From Alphaproteobacteria bacterium (GTDB lineage Bacteria > Pseudomonadota > Alphaproteobacteria > SHVV01): a stretch of 64,000 nucleotides of DNA. A program made the translations under genes and the position numbers. The notes under the pieces are model-generated. The model had not been told where the DNA came from and did no database searches. It saw only the letters and a list, made by a program, of their open reading frames with translations. Below are positions 7,871 through 14,325 of this stretch, one piece after another. Numbering within the stretch: the first letter of the stretch is position 1; each line of letters begins with the position of its first letter. The stretch lies in the NCBI GenBank assembly GCA_965261735.1, contig OZ253470.1, positions 3,136,001-3,200,000 on the forward strand, in the 5' to 3' direction.

Positions 7871-9994
7871 CTACCCTTCGATCTGCGAAAAGTCGGCGAC
7901 CGTGTCGAACGGCTCGCGAATGTTCGACAAGAAACGCAGCCGCCTCTCCCTAAGTTTCCTATCCACATCGTTTACGGTGATTCGATCGAAGAACATATCG
8001 ACCGGCTGACGCAACGGCGCCAGTTCGGACATAGCGCCGGTGAAGTCTCCACTCTTCAGCGCTTGTTTACTTGCCGTCATCGAGGCCGTCAGACTGGAGT
8101 ACAGTGCCCTTTCCTCGGGCTGAGCGTACTCCATCCAGTCGGCCAATTCGTTGTTGGACAATCCCTTGTAAGAACGGCCGTCCTTCTTTTCCTCGATGCG
8201 GACGATATTGGCGGCGCGCTTGTAGGCTGTGAGCAGGTTGCCACCGTCATCGGTATCGAGGAATTCTTGCAACGCCTCGACCCGCGCCATGAGCCGCACC
8301 AGGTCGTCCTCGCCGGTGAGCGCAAAGACCGCCGCAATGAGATCGTGGCGCACGCCGCGCTCGCGCAGATGCACCTTGAGTCGGTCGGCGATGAATCCTA
8401 AAACATCGTCAGCCACCTGCTCCGTTTGATAGCGCAGCATCGCACCCTGCCCAGAGTATGCTTTCCAAGATCCCGCCAGTATCGTTCGCAGCGGAAGTCG
8501 AAGGTCGTTCTCCAAAATAATGCGAATCACGCCGAGCGCTGCGCGCCGTAGGGCGAAGGGATCCCTTGAGCCGGTCGGCTTTTCGCCTCGCCCGAAGAAT
8601 CCGGTTAGTGTGTCAAGTTTGTCTGCTAGTGCCACTGCGACGGATATCGACGCACTGGGGCATGTGTCGTTCGGGCCCAAGGGCGAATAATGATCCCTGA
8701 TGGCGTCGGCGACGTCCGCCGACTCACCGTCAGCGAGCGCATAATATCGCCCTGCAACGCCCTGTAGTTCGGGGAACTCTGCCACCATGGCTGTCGTAAG
8801 GTCAGCTTTAGCGAGTCGCGCCGCGGCGCGTACGTGACTCCGGTCCGTTTGAGGAACAAACGGAATCAAATCGAGGGCGAGTGACTCCATTCGGTCGGCT
8901 TTTTGATCGAGAGAGCCCAGACCGGCAAAAAAAACAATGCCCCAGAGCGCCGGTACTCGGCTCTCAAGCGTTGACTTGCGGTCCTGGTCCCAGAAGTACT
9001 TGGCGTCGGCGAGGCGGGCGCGTAAGACCCGCTCGTTGCCGGCGATGATGGCGGCGCCGCCGTCCTCGGCCTCGATGTTGGCGACGACGATGAAGCGGGG
9101 CGCGAGGTCGCCGGCGGCGTTGCGGAGCGAGAAGTACTTCTGGTGGGTGCGCATTGAGGCGCGCAGGGCCTCCGGTGGAAGCTCCAGGAACGCCTCGTCG
9201 AACCGCCCCATAAGCACCACCGGCCACTCGACGAGCCCCGCGTTCTCCGCGACCAGCGCTTCGTCCTCGACGAGGGTCAACCCCTCCCCCGCCGCCAGTT
9301 CGTTCGCGCTGTCGCGGATGATGCGCTTGCGCTCCTCCGCATCGAGGATGACGTACGCCCCGCGCAGTCCTTGTTCGTAGTCGGCGAAGTTTTTGACCTC
9401 GAATGCTTCGGGTGCGTGGAATCGATGTCCGCGTGTTTTCCCAGTGGCAACCAAACCTCTTCCTACAGGTTCATCATCTATCAGTTCGATGGAATACGGT
9501 ATCGACTTACCCCCAAAAACTGCCAGCAATGAATGAATGGGGCGGACCCACAGAAACCTATTCGCGCCCCAACGCATCGACTTGGGCCAATGCAACGACG
9601 AAATCGCCCACGCCACCGCCAGCCCGGCACCTATTTGGGTCGGCTGCCCTTCCTTTTCGACAACAGCAAACAACACCTTGCCCCTGTCGGTATCGCGCTC
9701 CTCGACGCGCTCATCCTGCGCTCGATCGAGCGAGTTCATGAAGCCGTCGATCGCTTTTTGCGGCGCATCGACTCGCGGCCCTTTTCGCTCCTTGTGGACC
9801 TTGGGCTGCTGTTCGGGCAGGCCGTCGACGACCAGTGCGAGGCGGCGCGGCGTCGCGAAGGCGCGCGCATTGTCAAAAGACAGGCCGGCCTCATCGAGCC
9901 CCTTGGTGACGAGGCGCTTGAGGTCGGCCGCCGCGCGCTCCTGCATGCCGGCCGGAATCTCCTCCGACAGAAGCTCTAGCAGCAGTTCGGCCAC
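7871..9994 (-). CDS. glyS: glycine--tRNA ligase beta subunit
   Basis: LLLELLSEEIPA, WPKSMRWG, GNERVLRARLADA, EFPELQG, PTGSRDPFALRRAA; downstream of glyQ. Confidence 0.96.
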   Translation of the reverse strand: MAELLLELLSEEIPAGMQERAAADLKRLVTKGLDEAGLSFDNARAFATPRRLALVVDGLPEQQPKVHKERKGPRVDAPQKAIDGFMNSLDRAQDERVEERDTDRGKVLFAVVEKEGQPTQIGAGLAVAWAISSLHWPKSMRWGANRFLWVRPIHSLLAVFGGKSIPYSIELIDDEPVGRGLVATGKTRGHRFHAPEAFEVKNFADYEQGLRGAYVILDAEERKRIIRDSANELAAGEGLTLVEDEALVAENAGLVEWPVVLMGRFDEAFLELPPEALRASMRTHQKYFSLRNAAGDLAPRFIVVANIEAEDGGAAIIAGNERVLRARLADAKYFWDQDRKSTLESRVPALWGIVFFAGLGSLDQKADRMESLALDLIPFVPQTDRSHVRAAARLAKADLTTAMVAEFPELQGVAGRYYALADGESADVADAIRDHYSPLGPNDTCPSASISVAVALADKLDTLTGFFGRGEKPTGSRDPFALRRAALGVIRIILENDLRLPLRTILAGSWKAYSGQGAMLRYQTEQVADDVLGFIADRLKVHLRERGVRHDLIAAVFALTGEDDLVRLMARVEALQEFLDTDDGGNLLTAYKRAANIVRIEEKKDGRSYKGLSNNELADWMEYAQPEERALYSSLTASMTASKQALKSGDFTGAMSELAPLRQPVDMFFDRITVNDVDRKLRERRLRFLSNIREPFDTVADFSQIEG

Positions 9995-10037
9995 GGCTCG
10001 GATTCCGCTCGCGAGGAAAGAAGATGCGGCTCGACGC

Positions 10038-10260
10038 GCCCTCGCCCTACCCCCTCCCACCAGGGGAGGGGGATGTACGGGGTGGGTGCCCGCGCCAAAC
10101 GACAGCCAAGAGTAGGCTGCGTCGACCAGAGGAAACCTACTCGCCCTCCCCCTACCCCCTCCCACGGGGGGAGGGGGGCTACGTCAGCTCGCGCCCCACG
10201 GTCCCGTCCCTCCTTGTGCGGGAGGGATAGGGAGGGGGGTTCGCTGCGGGAGGGGGAGCG
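10038..10260. repeat. composite C-rich/G-rich palindromic REP-like element between glyQ and glyS
   Basis: Three CCCTCC..GGAGGG hairpins; 27 bp ccctaccccctcccaccaggggagggg (10045-10071) identical to 57353-57379. Confidence 0.8.
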
Positions 10261-10307
10261 GGTGCCGGGCATGGTGCCGGCGTTTCGCCCCTCCTGCCGC
10301 TCGGGGG

Positions 10308-11204
10308 TCATGCGCCCGTTCCGGGCTTCGCCCCGCGGCTGGCCAGCCACGTCTCGCAGCAGCCCTTGGCGAGCGCGCGGATGCGGGCGATGTACTGGGC
10401 ACGCTCGGTGACGCTGATGCGCCCGCGGGCATCGAGGAGGTTGAACAGGTGGCTCGCCTTCAAGCACTGATCGTAGGCCGGCAGCGCGAGGTCCGCCCGG
10501 AGCAGCGCGCCGCATTCGTCTTCCGCATCGGCGAAGTGCCGCACCAGCCGGTCCGCGTCCGCATGCTCGAAGTTGAAGGCGGAGAACTCGCGCTCGGACT
10601 GGCGGTACACATCGCCGTAGGTCACGCCCTGGCCGTTCCAGTCGAGATCAAAGACGTTGTCGACCCCCTGGACGTACATCGCCAGGCGCTCGAGCCCGTA
10701 GGTGATCTCGCCCGAGACGATGTCGAGGTCGAGCCCGCCGACCTGCTGGAAATAGGTGAACTGGCTCACCTCCATGCCGTCGCACCACACCTCCCAGCCG
10801 AGCCCCCAGGCGCCCAGCGTGGGGCTCTCCCAGTCGTCCTCGACGAAGCGGATGTCGTGGACACGCGAATCGATACCGAGGTCGTCCAGGCTGTCGAGGT
10901 AGACCTGCTGGATATCCTCAGGTGAGGGCTTGAGGATGACCTGGAATTGGTAGAAGCGCTGCAGGCGGTTGGGGTTGTCGGCATAGCGGCCGTCGGTGGG
11001 GCGGCGCGAGGGCTGCACGTAGGCGGCACGCCAGTGCTCGGGCCCGAGCGCGCGCAGCGTCGTCGCCGGGTGGAAGGTGCCGGCGCCGACCTCGAGGTCA
11101 TAGGGCTGCAACAGTACGCACCCCTGCCCCGCCCAAAACGACTGCAGCTTGAGGATCAGCTCCTGGAACGAGGCGCCGGTGGGCGCGGCGCCAAGCTCGC
11201 TCAC
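10308..11204 (-). CDS. glyQ: glycine--tRNA ligase alpha subunit
   Basis: [57 protein letters not shown]. Confidence 0.98.
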
Positions 11205-11422
11205 GCCGAGTAGGGGCAGCCGTCGCGCTCACAAGCGGCGGCGGCCGGCGAGACGTAGGCGCTGCACACGGCGCAGCGCTCGAGGTCTTCCGTGACCGCG
11301 GTTGAGCTCCGGCGGAGCCCGCCGCGGGCGCCCGCGCCTGACGAAAGCGTGCGCGACACCAGGCGGTAGCCGTACAACACGGCGGCGATCACCAGTCCGG
11401 TAAAGATGATCTTCCAGATCAT
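11201..11422 (-). CDS. small membrane-anchored protein with CxxC..CxxxxC motif
   Basis: N-terminal TM helix, [21 protein letters not shown]; stop overlaps the glyQ start. Confidence 0.7.
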
Positions 11423-11563
11423 GGTCGAGGTTTAGAAGGAAGCTCGCAGGCGGTCAAGGAGCGCTCCGTCCTTTTTGGCGACATGGCCCTTATGCCGGGG
11501 CCGACGGCGGGTTCGGTCCCGCGGCCCGGCCGCGCGCGCTCCTAACCTGGCGGGCCGCCTTGC

Positions 11564-11589
11564 TCAGGCGAAGCGATAAACCAGCCTGA
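11564..11589 (-). pseudogene. last codons of DHFR/RibD-C family gene (RLVYRFA*)
   Basis: Joins in frame to ..FPCGVV at 12941 when the IS110 is removed. Confidence 0.75.
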
Positions 11590-11668
11590 TGGTATGGACG
11601 CCCCCTACGGCTTCACGATGAGCCATACTGGAGTGTGTTGAACAACCCAGACAGAGGGAGCGTCCACG

Positions 11669-12688
11669 ATGGATATTACGACAATTGGGTTTGATCTGGC
11701 AAAGACGGTGTTCCAGGTTCACGGTGCTGATGGTGAGGGACGACCGGTACTACGGCGGAAGCTGCGCCGCGGGAAGGTGCTGGCGTTCTTCGCCGGATTG
11801 CCATCCTGTCTTGTCGGTATGGAAGCCTGTGCCTCTGCGCACTATTGGGCTCGGGAACTGCAAGCACACGGGCACAAAGTTCAGCTGATTCCGCCTCAAT
11901 ACGTTCGTCCCTTCGTCAAAACGAATAAGAACGACGCAGCGGATGCGGAAGCGATCTGTGAGGCAGTGACGCGTCCGACGATGCGCTTTGCACCGGCGAA
12001 AAGCGCCGAGCAGCAGTCGGTTCTGATGCTGCACCGGGCCCGAGAGCTGTTGGTCCGTCAACGCACGATGGTGATCAATGCGCTTCGCGGCCACTGTGCG
12101 GAGTTCGGACTGATCGTCGCTCAGGGGGCGTCGAAGGTGGAGGAACTGGTTGCCATTATCGAAGATCCCGGCGATGTGCGACTGCCGCCTCTGGCACGCG
12201 AGGCGCTTGGCTCTCTGGTTGAGCAGCTCCGTTCTGCTCAGGCCCGGATCAAGCAGCTGGAAGTGACGCTTTTGGCATGGCACCGCTCCAACGAGGCGAG
12301 CCGCCGTCTTGCGACGATCCCCGGCGTCGGTGTCATCACCGCGACGGCGCTGGTCGCGACGATCGGCGATGGCGCACAGTTCCGCTCGGGCCGACAGCTT
12401 TCGGCCTGGCTCGGTCTCGTGCCCCGGCAGCACTCGAGTGGCGGCAAGGATAGACTGGGACGGATATCGAAGCGCGGGGATGGCTATATCAGGCGCTTGC
12501 TCGTGCATGGTGCGCGAACCGTGCTGCGCTGGCGCCGCGCCAAGCCGGGCACGGGGCCTGGCTGGACCGACCGGCTCCTGGCGCGGCGGCCGACAAACGT
12601 GGTGCTGGTCGCCATGGCCAATAAGGCAGCCCGTGTCGCCTGGGCACTGCTCAGGTACGAGCGTATCTACCGACCGACGCCGGCATAG
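11669..12688 (+). CDS. IS110/IS1111 DEDD recombinase (transposase)
   Basis: IGFDLAKTVFQVHG, GMEAC, KNDAADAEAI, TIPGVG, GLVPRQHSSGGK..ISKRGD. Confidence 0.96.
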   Translation: MDITTIGFDLAKTVFQVHGADGEGRPVLRRKLRRGKVLAFFAGLPSCLVGMEACASAHYWARELQAHGHKVQLIPPQYVRPFVKTNKNDAADAEAICEAVTRPTMRFAPAKSAEQQSVLMLHRARELLVRQRTMVINALRGHCAEFGLIVAQGASKVEELVAIIEDPGDVRLPPLAREALGSLVEQLRSAQARIKQLEVTLLAWHRSNEASRRLATIPGVGVITATALVATIGDGAQFRSGRQLSAWLGLVPRQHSSGGKDRLGRISKRGDGYIRRLLVHGARTVLRWRRAKPGTGPGWTDRLLARRPTNVVLVAMANKAARVAWALLRYERIYRPTPA

Positions 12689-12699
12689 CCAGCTGGCAA

Positions 12700-12890
12700 A
12701 CCGGGATCAAATTGCGAGGGTGACGACGATTTGATGGCGAAACAGGGTTCCACCCGAGATCGGCCAAACCCGAGGCATTGTCCGAGCATCAAGCTCGTTA
12801 GTCTGACTGGGCGTCGATCTTTCGGATTCCATCAGGGCCAGCGGTCAGCGTACCGCAGCGAAAAGGCCGGATACATGACTGCAAGCTCTA
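12700..12890 (+). ncRNA. putative bridge RNA / seekRNA
   Basis: 5' hairpin 12706-12735 followed by two guide-bearing loops matching the target site and the circle junction (see findings); transcript ends not determined. Confidence 0.75.
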
Positions 12891-12915
12891 CCGCCGATTC
12901 AAATCGGTTTTCCCC

Positions 12916-12943
12916 TTGCAACACCGGGGGCGTCCATACATGA
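12916..12943 (+). promoter_or_regulatory. IS1111 circle-junction promoter (TTGCAA-N17-CATGAT, completed on circularisation)
   Basis: TTGCAA at 12916-12921, 17 bp spacer; the last T of the -10 is supplied by the left end only after the ends join. Confidence 0.6.
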
Positions 12944-13220
12944 CAACGCCACAGGGAAACGACTGGGTTTCTTCCAAGCTCAGCCGCGCGTGGCGCGGGG
13001 ACCTCTCGAAAAGGGGCAGGCCGCTACCAATCAGCACGGGAATCACAAATAGCTCTATCCGATCGACGGCGTCATGGTCGAGGAATGCTCGGATTGTCTT
13101 CGCTCCACCAACGATCCAGACGTCTTCGCCGAGAGCTTTGAGTCGGCTCACCAGAGCCTGAATGCCGTCGTCCGATACTTCCGTATTCTCGGGAGGTGAC
13201 CCGATAGCTCGAGAAGAAAG
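12941..13220 (-). pseudogene. C-terminal part of DHFR/RibD-C family gene
   Basis: DVWIVGGAKTIRAFL..DRIELFVIPVLIGSGLPLF; bounded by IS1595 and IS110. Confidence 0.88.
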
Positions 13221-14325
13221 CTTGCCTATCCGGTTAACGCCCATGACCGCTACATGTAGGGTGCCGCCACTCTCCCGAGTAAAGCTCGGCATAGGTTGGA
13301 GCAGAGGTGTCGCCCGCGATGCCGAGCAATGAGCGGAAGGCGTTGAACGGGTAGAACCGCCTGTTGAAGCGGAAGGTGAACTCGTTGAGGTAGGCTTGTA
13401 GGTGCTGGTGGCTAACGCCGTGGTGGATACCGATCAGCCACGTCTTCAGGTTGGCGAAAACCAGATGGATGATCGGCAGGTATTGCTCGGCAACCTCTGG
13501 ATCACCACACTCGGCAACAGCGAAGTGCTCATAGCCGCGCTTACCGAGGCCAGCATAGCCGCTCCAATCGTCAGTAACGATCAGCGATCGCGGCGCGACG
13601 GTGCTCTCGACGAACCCACAGAGCGACTCGGCGCTACGGTCGAGCACGACGGCGAGCCGAACGCGTCCGGCATAGCGTCCGTCTTTCCGGTTGTCGAGCT
13701 TGGTGCCCGGCTTTCGATGACGCACCTCGATGGCACAGGAGACGGGAACCTTGTGGTGAACACCACGGCCTTCCCCACGCGTTCGCCCGCCAACCCAGGT
13801 TTCGTCCACCTCAACATGGTTCTTGGGCTGTCCACCGATCCTGTCTTGGTTGGGCCGCACCATGCCCGAGCGGAGCTTGTGGAGAATTTGAAAGGCCGTC
13901 TCGTAGCGCGAAAGACCAAGTTGCCGCTGAAACTGCACGGCGGACATGCCGGGCGTCTGACTGGCGACCAGATAAGCGGCCCAGAACCAGACGTTCAGCG
14001 GAGTGTGGCTACGCTCCATCACTGTTCCCACCGTCAGCCCGGTGTTCTGGCGGCACTTGCGGCAGCGCAGGACGCCAGGGCGGTTTTCAAAGTGGAACGG
14101 CTCTCCCGCCGTGCCGCAGTGCGGGCAGGCAAAGCCGTCTCCCCAGCGGGCTTTCTCCAGGTAGGCGGCGCAGGCCGCATCATCGGGGAAAAGTCGCTGG
14201 AACTCGGGTAGCGAATGCGGGAATGGGAGATCGGCGCGGTCGAGAACATCCATGGCGCGCTCCCCTATATCCGGGTTGCGCCCATTCTAGCCCTAGTGGG
14301 TGTGGGTGTAACCCGGATAGCCAAG
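13221..14325 (-). mobile_element. IS1595 family element, copy 1 (1105 bp)
   Basis: Terminal IRs cttgcctatccggtt (left end has two substitutions); flanks gaatgatc / ctttcttc in IS orientation. Confidence 0.95.
13234..14253 (-). CDS. IS1595 family transposase (probably ISSod11-like), intact
   Basis: Zn ribbon CPHC..CRKC, VEVDETWVGG, TDDWSGY, YLNEFTFRFNRR. Confidence 0.93.
   Translation of the reverse strand: MDVLDRADLPFPHSLPEFQRLFPDDAACAAYLEKARWGDGFACPHCGTAGEPFHFENRPGVLRCRKCRQNTGLTVGTVMERSHTPLNVWFWAAYLVASQTPGMSAVQFQRQLGLSRYETAFQILHKLRSGMVRPNQDRIGGQPKNHVEVDETWVGGRTRGEGRGVHHKVPVSCAIEVRHRKPGTKLDNRKDGRYAGRVRLAVVLDRSAESLCGFVESTVAPRSLIVTDDWSGYAGLGKRGYEHFAVAECGDPEVAEQYLPIIHLVFANLKTWLIGIHHGVSHQHLQAYLNEFTFRFNRRFYPFNAFRSLLGIAGDTSAPTYAELYSGEWRHPTCSGHGR

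What the first reader, a model, noticed from the sequence alone, without database searches (positions are those of the whole stretch)
12689..12943. IS1111 non-coding end encodes a bispecific guide RNA matching both its circle junction and its real target
Seen: removing the IS rebuilds the target ccagccTGAcaacgcc, and joining the IS ends gives the donor catacaTGAtggta. The 3' non-coding region carries all four matches in two loops. Target loop: ggcattgtcc (12774-12783; 8/10 to the reverse complement of the right target, ggcgttgtca), a gagc/gctc hairpin, then agtctgac (12800-12807; 7/8 to agcctgac), enclosed by a stem at ~12754-12765 / 12810-12825. Donor loop: ttccatca (12827-12834; 7/8 to taccatca), a ggcc..ggcc hairpin, then atacatga (12871-12878; 8/8). 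A 5' hairpin lies at 12706-12735. Established: IS110/IS1111 DEDD recombinases use bridge/seek RNAs. Inference: this is a complete, apparently intact RNA-guided recombinase whose preferred target is about AGTCTGACAATGCC, with this site tolerated through mismatches or a G-U wobble.
Basis: partly seen in the sequence, partly recalled or inferred. Interest (0 to 1): 0.88.

Follow-up and report, generated by a model that had tools for sequence, protein, structure and literature searches.

The report
IS1111-type insertion sequence with bridge RNA
This is an intact mobile element of a known RNA-guided kind, and its non-coding tail carries short guide segments that match the sites where its many copies have inserted, so it is a well-supported but ordinary new member.

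Summary
All four short matches sit at the stated coordinates. Each loose match alone is common by chance, but all four in order appeared in 0 of 5000 random sequences.

The element spans about 11589-12940 between two TG copies. It has an intact 339-aa DEDD/serine recombinase gene, 14-bp subterminal inverted repeats and a 255-nt 3' non-coding end.

Among 9 genuine right junctions in the same genome, 5 read CAATGCC exactly and 4 differ by one base. Three of 12 left junctions read TAGTC-TGA exactly. In 16 close relatives from other genomes, 14 match the first guide 9/9.

Across 43 diverged relatives, both target guides and the 3' donor guide change together with their DNA partners (0 of 5000 permutations).

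Two details need correction. The 5' hairpin is not conserved; long-range closing stems are. The 5' donor segment can alternatively pair inside the RNA.

No direct evidence of the RNA exists: contigs from RNA libraries merely cover the region.

Verdict: a new member of the known bridge/seek-RNA IS1111 kind.

The parts
11587..12942 (+). Insertion sequence: body 11589-12940, with a TG copy on each side (11587-11588 and 12941-12942).
   Evidence: copies elsewhere in the genome share exactly this span. The TG core is inferred from relatives whose right triplet is TGG or TGC while the left is TGA.
11592..11605 (+). Left subterminal inverted repeat, GTATGGACGCCCCC.
   Evidence: a 14/14 inverted repeat with 12926-12939 in near-identical copies. 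Read.
11669..12688 (+). Recombinase gene, 339 aa, intact.
   Evidence: PF01548 plus PF02371. NF033542 'IS110 family RNA-guided transposase' scores 351 bits against a cut-off of 140. The C-terminal part aligns to the IS621 and ISCro4 chains at E about 4e-11. D9, E52, D89 and D92 are invariant in 56 of 56 distinct homologues, and S257 is S or T in 55 of 56.
12712..12921 (+). Proposed span of the bridge/seek RNA, from the outermost conserved stem P0 5' strand to the P0 3' strand. The true ends are unknown.
   Evidence: G.U pairs in the conserved stems are valid only on the + strand.
12712..12720 (+). P0 5' strand (TTGCGAGGG), which pairs with 12913-12921.
   Evidence: MFE fold. Cognate duplex energy is -11.3 against -8.8 kcal/mol non-cognate, with 0 of 2000 permutations as low.
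12727..12739 (+). P1 5' strand, which pairs with 12892-12906. It contains TGATGG (12732-12737), identical to core plus left IS end.
   Evidence: Cognate energy is -13.2 against -8.8 kcal/mol non-cognate, with 0 of 2000 permutations as low. Alternative pairing of 12732-12737 with 12829-12834 appears.
12755..12824 (+). Target-binding domain: outer stem 12755-12764 and 12769-12771 paired with 12809-12811 and 12813-12824, an internal loop, and a distal hairpin.
   Evidence: RNAalifold: compensatory changes in the outer-stem pairs, for example column pair 119/178 with GC 14, CG 12 and UA 2. One search gives the cognate-versus-non-cognate energies.
12774..12782 (+). Target guide 1 (GGCATTGTC). It is complementary to the top strand of core-G plus the right flank (G-ACAATGCC).
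   Evidence: Cognate match is 7.77/9 against a permuted mean of 5.57, with 0 of 5000 permutations as high.
12783..12797 (+). Distal hairpin of the target loop (CGAGC / GCTCG).
   Evidence: pairs 140/155 (AU 14, CG 12, GC 4), 141/154 and 142/153 show compensatory changes.
12798..12807 (+). Target guide 2 (TTAGTCTGAC). It is identical to the top strand of left flank plus core, so it pairs with the bottom strand.
   Evidence: Cognate match is 7.60/9 against 5.57, with 0 of 5000 permutations as high.
12827..12834 (+). Donor guide 1 candidate (TTCCATCA). It is complementary to core plus left IS end (TGATGG). It can also pair with 12732-12737 inside the RNA.
   Evidence: Cognate match is 7.19/9 against 6.60 permuted, with 0 of 5000 as high. 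The rival RNA-RNA helix shows compensatory changes (pairs 85/200 and 89/196).
12836..12868 (+). Distal hairpin of the donor loop (GGCC/GGCC, with an inner GCGGT/ACCGC stem).
   Evidence: pairs 210/226 (GC 27, AU 5) and 212/224 (CG 20, UA 10) are compensatory.
12871..12879 (+). Donor guide 2 (ATACATGAC). It is identical to right IS end plus core plus one base.
   Evidence: At least 7/8 in every listed element while the right end varies over 8 types: ATACA, ATAGA, AGATA, ACATA, ACACA and ATGGA with TGA, TGG or TGC. Cognate match is 7.91/9 against 6.55, with 0 of 5000 as high.
12892..12906 (+). P1 3' strand.
12913..12921 (+). P0 3' strand. 12916-12921 (TTGCAA) is also a -35-like hexamer of a promoter completed only in the circle junction.
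   Evidence: In one search, 36 of 45 distinct relatives have a 4/6 -10-like hexamer 17 nt downstream only when the ends are joined.
12926..12939 (+). Right subterminal inverted repeat, GGGGGCGTCCATAC.
11580..11588 (+). Left half of this copy's target (ACCAGCC-TG).
   Evidence: It matches guide 2 in 3/5 of the last five flank bases. All three differences over ten bases are wobble-compatible.
12941..12950 (+). Right half of this copy's target (TG-ACAACGCC).
   Evidence: 6/7 to CAATGCC, with one A.C mismatch.

Best explanation
Window 11587-12942 is an intact IS1111-group member of the IS110 family.

**How it most likely works**
- Its DEDD/serine recombinase is guided by a structured RNA of roughly 210 nt, encoded on the + strand of the 3' non-coding end (about 12712-12921).
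- Two long-range stems close the RNA: 12712-12720 with 12913-12921, and 12727-12739 with 12892-12906.
- The RNA carries a target-binding stem-loop (12755-12824). Its internal loop holds guide 1 (12774-12782), which pairs with the top strand of core-G plus the right flank. It also holds guide 2 (12798-12807), which pairs with the bottom strand of the left flank plus the core.
- Next comes a donor loop with 12827-12834 and 12871-12879 either side of a GGCC hairpin. These match the two sides of the joined IS ends.
- The exchange core is most likely TG.
- The preferred site is (T)TAGTC-TG-ACAATGCC. This copy sits at an off-consensus site in the last codons of a RibD_C-family gene.

**Shown**
- The sequence features and intact catalytic motifs.
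- Site-specific insertion of the sister copies.
- Covariation of guides with flanks and with ends.
- Covariation in the stems.

**Inferred**
- That the RNA is made, probably from a promoter formed at the circle junction and through the recombinase gene.
- That it binds the recombinase.
- That the donor segments act as guides.
For: **Protein**
- PF01548 plus PF02371.
- NF033542 at 351 bits.
- The IS621 and ISCro4 chains are the only PDB matches.
- D9, E52, D89 and D92 are invariant in 56 of 56 homologues, and the GL-P----SG motif is kept.

**Element**
- 14-bp subterminal repeats.
- A 255-nt right non-coding end against about 80 nt on the left.
- 17 BLAST pieces above 85% identity in the same genome. 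Five span the whole element or nearly so at 99.6% identity or more, this one included.

**Target**
- Own genome: 9 genuine right junctions, 5 at 7/7 and 4 at 6/7 to CAATGCC.
- Own genome: 12 left junctions, with last-5 matches of 5/5 in 3, 4/5 in 5, 3/5 in 1, 2/5 in 2 and 1/5 in 1.
- 16 relatives of 94% identity or more in other genomes: guide 1 matches 9/9 in 14, and guide 2 matches at least 7/8 in all 16.
- Elements whose guide 2 reads TAATC lie at TAATC in 5 of 9 copies. That flank is absent from all 12 left junctions in this genome.

**Covariation over 43 distinct relatives**
- All four guide/partner sets exceed every one of 5000 permutations.
- Six wrong pairings give no signal.
- Examples: L049 AGAC-TGA-CAGCACC, L068 GG-TGA-CAGTTTA, L084 GCTAA-TGA-CCCAA and L079 GCTTT-TG-GCACAA each match their own guides.

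**Other families in the same genome**
- A family with 51% protein identity uses a CG core. Its guides read GTAAC-CG-AT and CG-TTCGGATGC.
- Its 13 left flanks end in [AG][AG]C before the core (AAC in 10, GTAAC in 5).
- 7 of its 17 right flanks start TTCG.

**Structure**
- 35 consensus pairs, 15 with compensatory changes.
- Cognate helices are more stable than non-cognate ones in 0 of 2000 permutations for all six helices tested.

**Order of guides**
- The top-strand match lies 5' of the bottom-strand match. Siddiquee et al. report this order for IS1111 seekRNAs (PMC11187229, Results read).
Against: - No direct evidence for the RNA. Rfam has no match at E up to 1.
- Contigs from RNA libraries of two studies cover 12718-12946, but DNA carry-over cannot be excluded. 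No circle junction was seen.
- No + strand promoter-like site lies inside the integrated element.
- Related elements share ancestry, so the permutation counts overstate independence.
- Donor guides and IS ends are inherited in cis, which weakens that test.
- The 5' donor segment is complementary to only 6-9 bases of the left end. It can instead pair with 12732-12737. In 10 relatives a G-to-A and C-to-U double change keeps that RNA-RNA pair while the DNA stays G.
- For ISEc11 the short 82-nt seekRNA, without the longer form, sufficed for movement (PMC11187229, Results part 3). A donor loop may therefore not be needed in IS1111 elements.
- Mismatch types favour the assigned strand for guide 2 (48 wobble-compatible against 22 A.C-type) but not for guide 1 (15 against 20).
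- This copy's own site matches poorly: 3/5 and 6/7.
Confidence: 0.85

Rival explanations
1. The RNA is a target-only seekRNA. Only the 12755-12824 domain guides DNA recognition. The IS ends are recognised by the protein through the subterminal repeats, or through target-derived flanks. On this reading, 12827-12834 and 12871-12879 are scaffold that merely resembles the ends.
For: For ISEc11 the 82-nt short seekRNA alone supported movement of a mini-IS, and even better than the long form (PMC11187229, Results part 3 read). Donor segments and ends are linked in cis, so shared ancestry inflates the test. The 12827-12834 segment has an RNA partner.
Against: The 3' donor segment follows the right end base for base through 8 different end types, at 7/8 or better in every listed element. 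It sits in the mirror position of target guide 2. In the CG-core family both the target and the donor 3' segments carry CG. Durrant et al. report donor complementarity in IS1111 members they inspected (PMC11208160, passages read).
Confidence: 0.12
2. 12827-12834 (CCATCA) is mainly one strand of an internal RNA helix with 12732-12737 (TGATGG). It is either not a donor guide, or it is a guide masked by a donor-like decoy strand until the RNA refolds.
For: RNAalifold chooses this helix. Pair 85/200 is GC in 23 and AU in 10 sequences, and pair 89/196 is GC 17, CG 10 and AU 2. Cognate energy is -7.3 against -5.3 kcal/mol non-cognate, with 0 of 2000 permutations as low. In the AU group the DNA left end keeps G, so the double change serves the RNA pair.
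Against: The same 5' strand forms a far more stable helix with 12892-12906 (mean -13.2 against -7.3 kcal/mol). That would leave 12827-12834 free. In this element and in L097 the segment matches the left end further (8/9) than it matches the 5' strand.
Confidence: 0.3
3. The matches are chance, and the non-coding end has some other role such as mRNA stability or a protein-binding site.
For: Each loose match to this copy's own site is common in random sequence: 289 to 609 of 5000. The fold z-scores are modest, at -2.37 and -1.16.
Against: All four matches in order occurred in 0 of 5000 random sequences. The predicted site was found at sister copies. Covariation holds across 43 relatives.
Confidence: 0.02

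Closest known systems
seekRNAs of the IS1111-family elements ISEc11, ISPa11, ISKpn4 and ISPst6 (Siddiquee et al. 2024, PMC11187229)
   Same: A 339-aa-class DEDD transposase with a GL-P----S/T-G motif. Subterminal inverted repeats. A long non-coding region downstream of the gene. Two short segments matching the top and then the bottom strand of the target, either side of a hairpin and overlapping at the insertion point. No added duplication. A promoter formed at the circle junction.
   Different: Different target and sequence; the closest plasmid-borne relatives are only 65-68% identical in DNA. Here a second loop matching the joined ends covaries with the right end. That paper does not describe this in the sections I read. 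Nothing here is experimental.
IS621 bridge RNA (IS110 group; Durrant et al. 2024, PMC11208160; Hiraizumi et al. 2024, PMC11208158)
   Same: A bispecific RNA with a target loop and a donor loop. Each is an internal loop with two guides that read opposite strands and share a short core. The recombinase has a RuvC-like DEDD domain and a catalytic serine. The C-terminal domain aligns to the IS621 chain.
   Different: The RNA lies 3' of the gene rather than 5'. The guide order is reversed. The repeats are long (14 bp against 2-3 bp). The core is TG rather than CT. The donor strands appear to lie in a junction closed by long-range stems rather than in a simple second stem-loop. Bases that match the non-cognate DNA lie next to the left-half guides here, not the right-half guides (inference).
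IS1111-family elements that target ends of other mobile elements or repeats (IS4321/IS5075, ISPa11). These are known to me only from titles in the reference lists and from the text of PMC11187229.
   Same: Several insertion sites here share a longer repeated motif to the left of the guide-matched bases, (..TCCGACCCAGTT-AGTC-TGA). So the natural target looks like a repeated element.
   Different: The repeat was not identified, and its contexts differ.

Membership tests
IS110 family, IS1111 group | DEDD (RuvC-like) N-terminal domain plus a C-terminal Tnp domain with a conserved S/T-G | tested here: met
   PF01548 and PF02371. NF033542 at 351 bits against a cut-off of 140. D9, E52, D89 and D92 in 56 of 56 homologues. 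S257 is S or T in 55 of 56, and G258 is kept in 55 of 56. S257 aligns with the SG of ISCro4. Which residues are catalytic is taken from PMC11208158 (IS621 D11, E60, D102, D105, S241) and from motif position. It was not taken from a residue-by-residue alignment of the N-terminal domain.
IS110 family, IS1111 group | Subterminal inverted repeats of 7-17 bp (PMC11208160) | tested here: met
   14/14 repeat, 11592-11605 with 12926-12939.
IS110 family, IS1111 group | The longer non-coding region lies downstream of the recombinase gene | tested here: met
   About 80 nt on the left (11589-11668) against 252 nt on the right (12689-12940).
IS110 family, IS1111 group | Site-specific insertion in one orientation without an added duplication | tested here: met
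   Junction tallies and relatives. Only the shared TG(A) stands at both junctions.
Bridge/seek RNA | Two segments in one internal loop that match opposite strands of the target and overlap at the core, covarying with the target | tested here: met
   (0 of 5000 permutations), with wrong-partner controls null. A second family in the same genome behaves the same way.
Bridge/seek RNA | IS1111 order: the top-strand match lies 5' of the bottom-strand match (PMC11187229) | tested here: met
   12774-12782 is complementary to the top strand, and 12798-12807 is identical to it.
Bridge RNA (bispecific) | A second loop whose two segments match the joined IS ends and covary with them | tested here: inconclusive
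   The 3' segment is met. The 5' segment is short and has a rival RNA partner. Cis linkage weakens the test.
Bridge/seek RNA | The RNA is made and co-purifies with the recombinase, and is needed for movement | not testable with these tools
   Only contigs of RNA libraries cover the region. They show neither transcription, nor ends, nor strand.
Any Rfam family | Match to a curated covariance model | tested here: not met
   0 matches at E up to 1 in 11400-13100 against 4227 families. So no curated model in that library recognises it.

The most novel reading that the evidence does not exclude
In this IS1111 clade the guide RNA may be more than a mirror image of the IS621 bridge RNA. Three features suggest this.
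- It looks like a junction RNA closed by two long-range stems.
- Its left-half guides carry 'handshake-like' bases that match the recombination products rather than the substrates. In 13 relatives where the first base right of the core differs between target and donor, the donor 3' guide follows the target in 12 and the donor in 0. The target 3' guide follows the donor in 11 and the target in 0. Counter-examples are L109 and a family in this genome.
- One closing strand carries a copy of the donor sequence TGATGG that can mask the 5' donor guide. That would amount to an RNA switch gating donor capture.
Probability: 0.2. Interest if true: 0.6.

Novelty: new member of a known kind. Interest (0 to 1): 0.4.

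Why it matters
It adds no new principle. RNA-guided IS110/IS1111 recombinases were described in 2024, and bridge RNAs were predicted for 93% of catalogued IS1111 elements (PMC11208160). Its value is as a clean natural data set.
- One genome holds 12 left and 10 right junctions of a recently active element, next to two further IS1111-type families with other cores.
- There is also a graded series of relatives whose guides, ends and targets change together.
- This gives a natural map of which mismatches and wobbles are tolerated.
- It supports a donor-matching segment in an IS1111-type RNA, where experiments so far centred on the target part.
- It points to possible mirrored handshake bases that could be tested when such systems are engineered.

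Tried and rejected
- **Rfam search** of 11400-13100 found nothing.
It is present in one single-sequence fold. It is not conserved in the alignment, so I rejected it as part of the common structure.
- **Unoccupied preferred sites in the genome.** There were 0 exact sites, 1 with one mismatch and 21 with up to two mismatches. Two of the 21 are the guide region of variant copies itself.
- **The repeated motif left of several insertion sites.**
  - The 400-nt flank occurs three times.
  - Neighbouring ORFs are a Mutator-type transposase and a serine recombinase in one place, and unrelated genes elsewhere.
  - A 12-mer search with two mismatches gave 217 mostly unrelated hits.
  - I did not identify the repeat.
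- **RNA evidence.**
  - 20 runs were listed. I laid four RNA-library runs from two studies.
  - All are contigs. They cover the element, including 12718-12946, and show no joint between the right and left ends.
  - Contig depth cannot rank parts of a gene, and DNA may be present. This is therefore neither support for nor evidence against transcription or circles.
- **Promoter scan.** No + strand promoter-like or terminator-like site lies in 11500-13000.
- **Mismatch-type test.** It supported the assigned strand for guide 2 (48 against 22) but not for guide 1 (15 against 20).
- **Plasmid collection.** Only distant relatives turned up, best 65-68% identity, annotated as IS110 family transposase or not at all.
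- **Covariance model.** I built none, so the long-range stems rest on duplex energies and not on a structure-aware alignment.
- **Supplementary files of papers were closed.** Durrant et al.'s Supplementary Table 5 and Extended Data Fig. 10c (IS1111 binding patterns), and Siddiquee et al.'s supplementary folds of long seekRNAs, may already show donor loops or closing stems like these.
- **Literature check on handshake bases.** That they are not described for IS1111 rests on one search. It found 4 papers holding both terms. In two of them IS1111 stood only in the reference lists as far as I saw. The preprint and PMC11208158's IS1111 mentions were not opened.

**Rows dropped**
- Of 80 loci plus the window, 12 lacked one of my end anchors: L034, L048, L050, L052, L053, L064, L065, L066, L077, L081, L082 and L098.
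- 3 had a poor repeat: L047, L086 and L096.
- That left 66 elements and 45 distinct non-coding ends.
- 2 of the 45 lacked a full flank, leaving 43.
- Alignment A1 used 33 of the 45. I left out the near-duplicates L073, L041, L042, L044, L046, L074, L106, L087, L088, L099 and L102, and the outlier L085.
Full report
**What is there**

The window holds a 339-codon open frame at 11669-12688 on the + strand.
- It carries the two Pfam domains of IS110-family transposases, PF01548 and PF02371.
- It scores 351 bits against NCBIfam NF033542, 'IS110 family RNA-guided transposase', whose cut-off is 140.
- Its only relatives among solved structures are the ISCro4 and IS621 recombinases, at E about 4e-11 over residues 210-329.
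- In an alignment of 56 distinct homologues, D9, E52, D89 and D92 are invariant. The GL-P----SG stretch is kept: S257 is S or T in 55 of 56, and G258 is kept in 55 of 56.
- S257 aligns with the SG of ISCro4.
- The assignment of these residues as the catalytic set follows the IS621 residues named in PMC11208158 (passages read) and the motif described in PMC11187229 (Results read).

The gene is flanked by a 14-bp inverted repeat, 11592-11605 and 12926-12939. About 80 nt of non-coding DNA lies on the left and 252 nt on the right. These are the features that both 2024 papers give for the IS1111 group.

**The observation**

Taken singly, the matches to this copy's own flanks are weak. In 5000 random sequences of the same first-order make-up, the 8/10 match arose in 609, the two 7/8 matches in 289 and 439, and the 8/8 match in 9. 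All four in order arose in none.

The single-sequence folds reproduce the enclosing stem and both hairpins. Their z-scores are modest, at -2.37 and -1.16.

**Test 1: sister copies**

The genome that holds the window has 17 BLAST pieces above 85% identity to the element. Five span the whole element or nearly so at 99.6% or more, this one included. So the element has been active recently.

A pattern search for its ends found 12 left and 10 right junctions.
- One right junction is a fusion to an internal site of a second copy.
- Of the other nine, five read CAATGCC after TGA. Four differ at one base: CAATGTC, CAGTGCC and CAACGCC twice, one of them this copy.
- Of the 12 left junctions, the last five bases match TAGTC 5/5 in three, 4/5 in five, 3/5 in one (this copy), 2/5 in two and 1/5 in one.

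In 16 relatives of 94% protein identity or more from other genomes, the first guide matches its flank 9/9 in 14. The exceptions are L045 at 7/9 and L041 at 4/9. The second guide matches at least 7/8 in all 16.

A single-base variant gives a fine-scale check. Elements whose second guide reads TAATC lie at TAATC in 5 of 9 copies. That flank is absent from all 12 left junctions in this genome.

No unoccupied exact site is left in this genome.

**Test 2: covariation**

A scan of one genome per species confirmed 427 relatives and returned the best 80, at 56-99% protein identity.

Anchoring on the conserved end motifs gave 66 elements with both ends, comprising 45 distinct non-coding ends. The dropped rows are listed under Tried and rejected.

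The alignment shows conserved stems with variable loop segments. The variable segments follow the flanks.
- L049 lies at AGAC-TGA-CAGCACC, and its loop reads AAGTGCTGTC ... TTAGACTGAC.
- L068-type elements lie at GG-TGA-CAGTTTA, and their loop reads GTTAAACTGTC.
- L084 lies at GCTAA-TGA-CCCAA, with TTTGGGTCAG ... GCGCTAATGA.
- L079-type elements lie at GCTTT-TG-GCACAA, with ACTTGTGCCAA ... GCTTTTGA.

Scoring used the best 9-base window in 43 elements with full flanks. Cognate means were:

| Guide and partner | Cognate mean | Permuted mean |
|---|---|---|
| Guide 1 against the right flank | 7.77/9 | 5.57 |
| Guide 2 against the left flank | 7.60/9 | 5.57 |
| 5' donor segment against the left end | 7.19/9 | 6.60 |
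| 3' donor segment against the right end | 7.91/9 | 6.55 |

No permutation out of 5000 reached the observed value in any of the four. Six deliberately wrong pairings gave no excess.

Relatedness inflates such tests. Against that, the number of distinct target types is large.

For the 3' donor segment, the right end takes eight forms. The segment matches at least 7/8 in every listed element.

Two further IS1111-type families in the same genome, about 51% identical in protein, show the same layout.
- One uses a CG core. Its loop segments read GTAAC-CG-AT and the complement of CG-TTCGGATGC.
- All 13 of its left junctions end in [AG][AG]C before the core: AAC in 10 (GTAAC in 5, GCAAC in 3) and GAGC in 3. 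Seven of its 17 right junctions begin TTCG.

**Structure**

RNAalifold on 33 of the 45 sequences gave 35 pairs, 15 of them with compensatory changes. It supports the outer stem of the target domain, its distal hairpin and the GGCC/GCGGT hairpin. G.U pairs in these stems fit the + strand only.

Instead, two long-range helices close the RNA:
- 12727-12739 pairs with 12892-12906.
- 12712-12720 pairs with 12913-12921.

Both are in the fold of the whole end. Across relatives their sequences differ while pairing is kept. Cognate duplexes average -13.2 and -11.3 kcal/mol, against -8.8 and -8.8 for non-cognate pairs. None of 2000 permutations was as low.

One ambiguity remains. The 5' closing strand contains TGATGG, the same letters as core plus left end.
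- RNAalifold pairs this strand with the 5' donor segment CCATCA.
- That helix has compensatory changes of its own.
- The long-range helix is much the more stable, which would leave CCATCA free for DNA.
- Sequence alone cannot settle whether CCATCA is a guide, a helix strand or both.

**Core and junction details (inference)**

In the L079-type relatives, L078, L076, L085 and L109, the triplet at the right junction is TGG or TGC while the left junction has TGA. So the shared exchange core is most simply TG. In this element both neighbours happen to be A.

In the 13 distinct elements where the base right of the core differs between target and donor:
- The 3' donor segment carries the target's base in 12 and the donor's in 0.
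- The 3' target segment carries the donor's base in 11 and the target's in 0.

These 13 represent only about five lineages. L109 and one family in this genome do not follow the rule.

The pattern recalls the handshake guides of IS621, which pair with the non-cognate DNA after strand exchange (PMC11208158, passages read). Here, though, they sit on the other pair of guides.

One search found no paper that treats this for IS1111.

**Expression (inference)**

The integrated element has no + strand promoter-like site.

Joining the ends places TTGCAA (12916-12921) 17 nt from CATGAT. This arrangement, with a 4/6 second hexamer, is present in 36 of 45 relatives and is weaker in the integrated state.

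Junction promoters are reported for ISEc11 (PMC11187229). The guide RNA would then be the tail of the recombinase transcript.

Contigs of four RNA-library runs from two studies cover the element and its tail. They cannot show transcription, and no circle joint was seen.

Their loose ends show flanks ending ...CAGTTAGT before CTGA. The contigs run on to 12950 before diverging, so relatives in those samples sit at the same kind of site.

**This copy**

Removing it restores an open frame on the minus strand that ends ...FPCGVVRLVYRFA. The interrupted ORF (12888-13292, minus strand) has a RibD_C domain. So the insertion replaced the last seven codons of a gene.

The left half-site differs from the guide only by three C-for-T changes. 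These give rU.dG wobbles with the bottom strand. The right half-site has one A.C mismatch.

**Comparison and verdict**

In kind, this is what Siddiquee et al. called a seekRNA and Durrant et al. a bridge RNA of an IS1111-group element.
- The membership features that sequence can test are met.
- RNA production and binding could not be tested.
- Rfam has no model that recognises it.
- The closest plasmid-borne relatives are only 65-68% identical. So it is a new member, not a known named element as far as these collections show.
- ISfinder could not be consulted.

The finding is correct and well read by the first stage, but it is not surprising to a specialist. The modestly new points are leads rather than results: a covarying donor segment in an IS1111-type RNA, the closing stems, the possible masking strand and the mirrored handshake-like bases.

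Noticed in passing
window 12888-13292 (-) and 11564-11589 (-): The insertion cut off the last seven codons of a gene with a RibD C-terminal domain (Pfam PF01872, E 6e-12). Without the element, the frame ends ...GVVRLVYRFA.
   Followed up: partly
window 13234-14253 (-): An IS1595-family transposase gene (PF12762 plus PF12760) lies directly beside the interrupted gene and overlaps its start. This is a second mobile element next to the first.
   Followed up: partly
window 7871-11204 (-): The two long ORFs upstream (764 aa and 298 aa) look by eye like the beta and alpha subunits of glycyl-tRNA synthetase. They were not tested with any tool.
   Followed up: no
G000:C1:2942628-2944366 (locus L003/L012): The right end of one copy is joined (..CATACA-TGG-ACCGACC..) to an internal site of a second copy, equivalent to window 12568. 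The flank of this locus recurs at 3095509, where the copy is broken and continues 2 kb further on. These are rearranged or nested copies.
   Followed up: partly
G000:C1:3098728-3098957 (locus L014): A fragment of the non-coding end stops inside the 3' donor segment (after GGCCGGATAC) and runs into unrelated sequence. It may be a break at a site that mimics the right end.
   Followed up: no
G000:C1, e.g. 418186-418215, 1989214-1989244, 4339574-4339604, 4454877-4454907; unoccupied relative at 434708-434755: Six insertion sites share about 30 bases to the left of the guide-matched part, (GGTTCT..AG.TCCGACCCAGTT.GTC-TGA). Only one similar site is unoccupied. The preferred target seems to be a repeated element that I could not identify.
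   Followed up: partly
G000:C1, 13 left and 17 right junctions, e.g. 1544427-1545801: A second IS1111-type family (about 51% protein identity, at least 13 copies) uses a CG core. Its own loop segments match (G)TAAC-CG and CG-TTCGGATGC. A third family (5 copies, e.g. 4348622) sits at CAAAAA-TG-TACCACG.
   Followed up: partly
loci L068-L071 and L093 (a Hoeflea-labelled genome): Five independent insertions of one element carry GGA at the right junction, while their 3' donor segment reads TGA. This is a tolerated mismatch at the first core base, or a change fixed after the last guide change.
   Followed up: no
G000:C1:1987704-1989660 (loci L009, L013): A 92%-identical variant copy and a partial copy lie head to head about 170 bases apart. 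The variant's right flank reads CAATGCC followed at once by TGACAACGCC, a second target-like right half.
   Followed up: no
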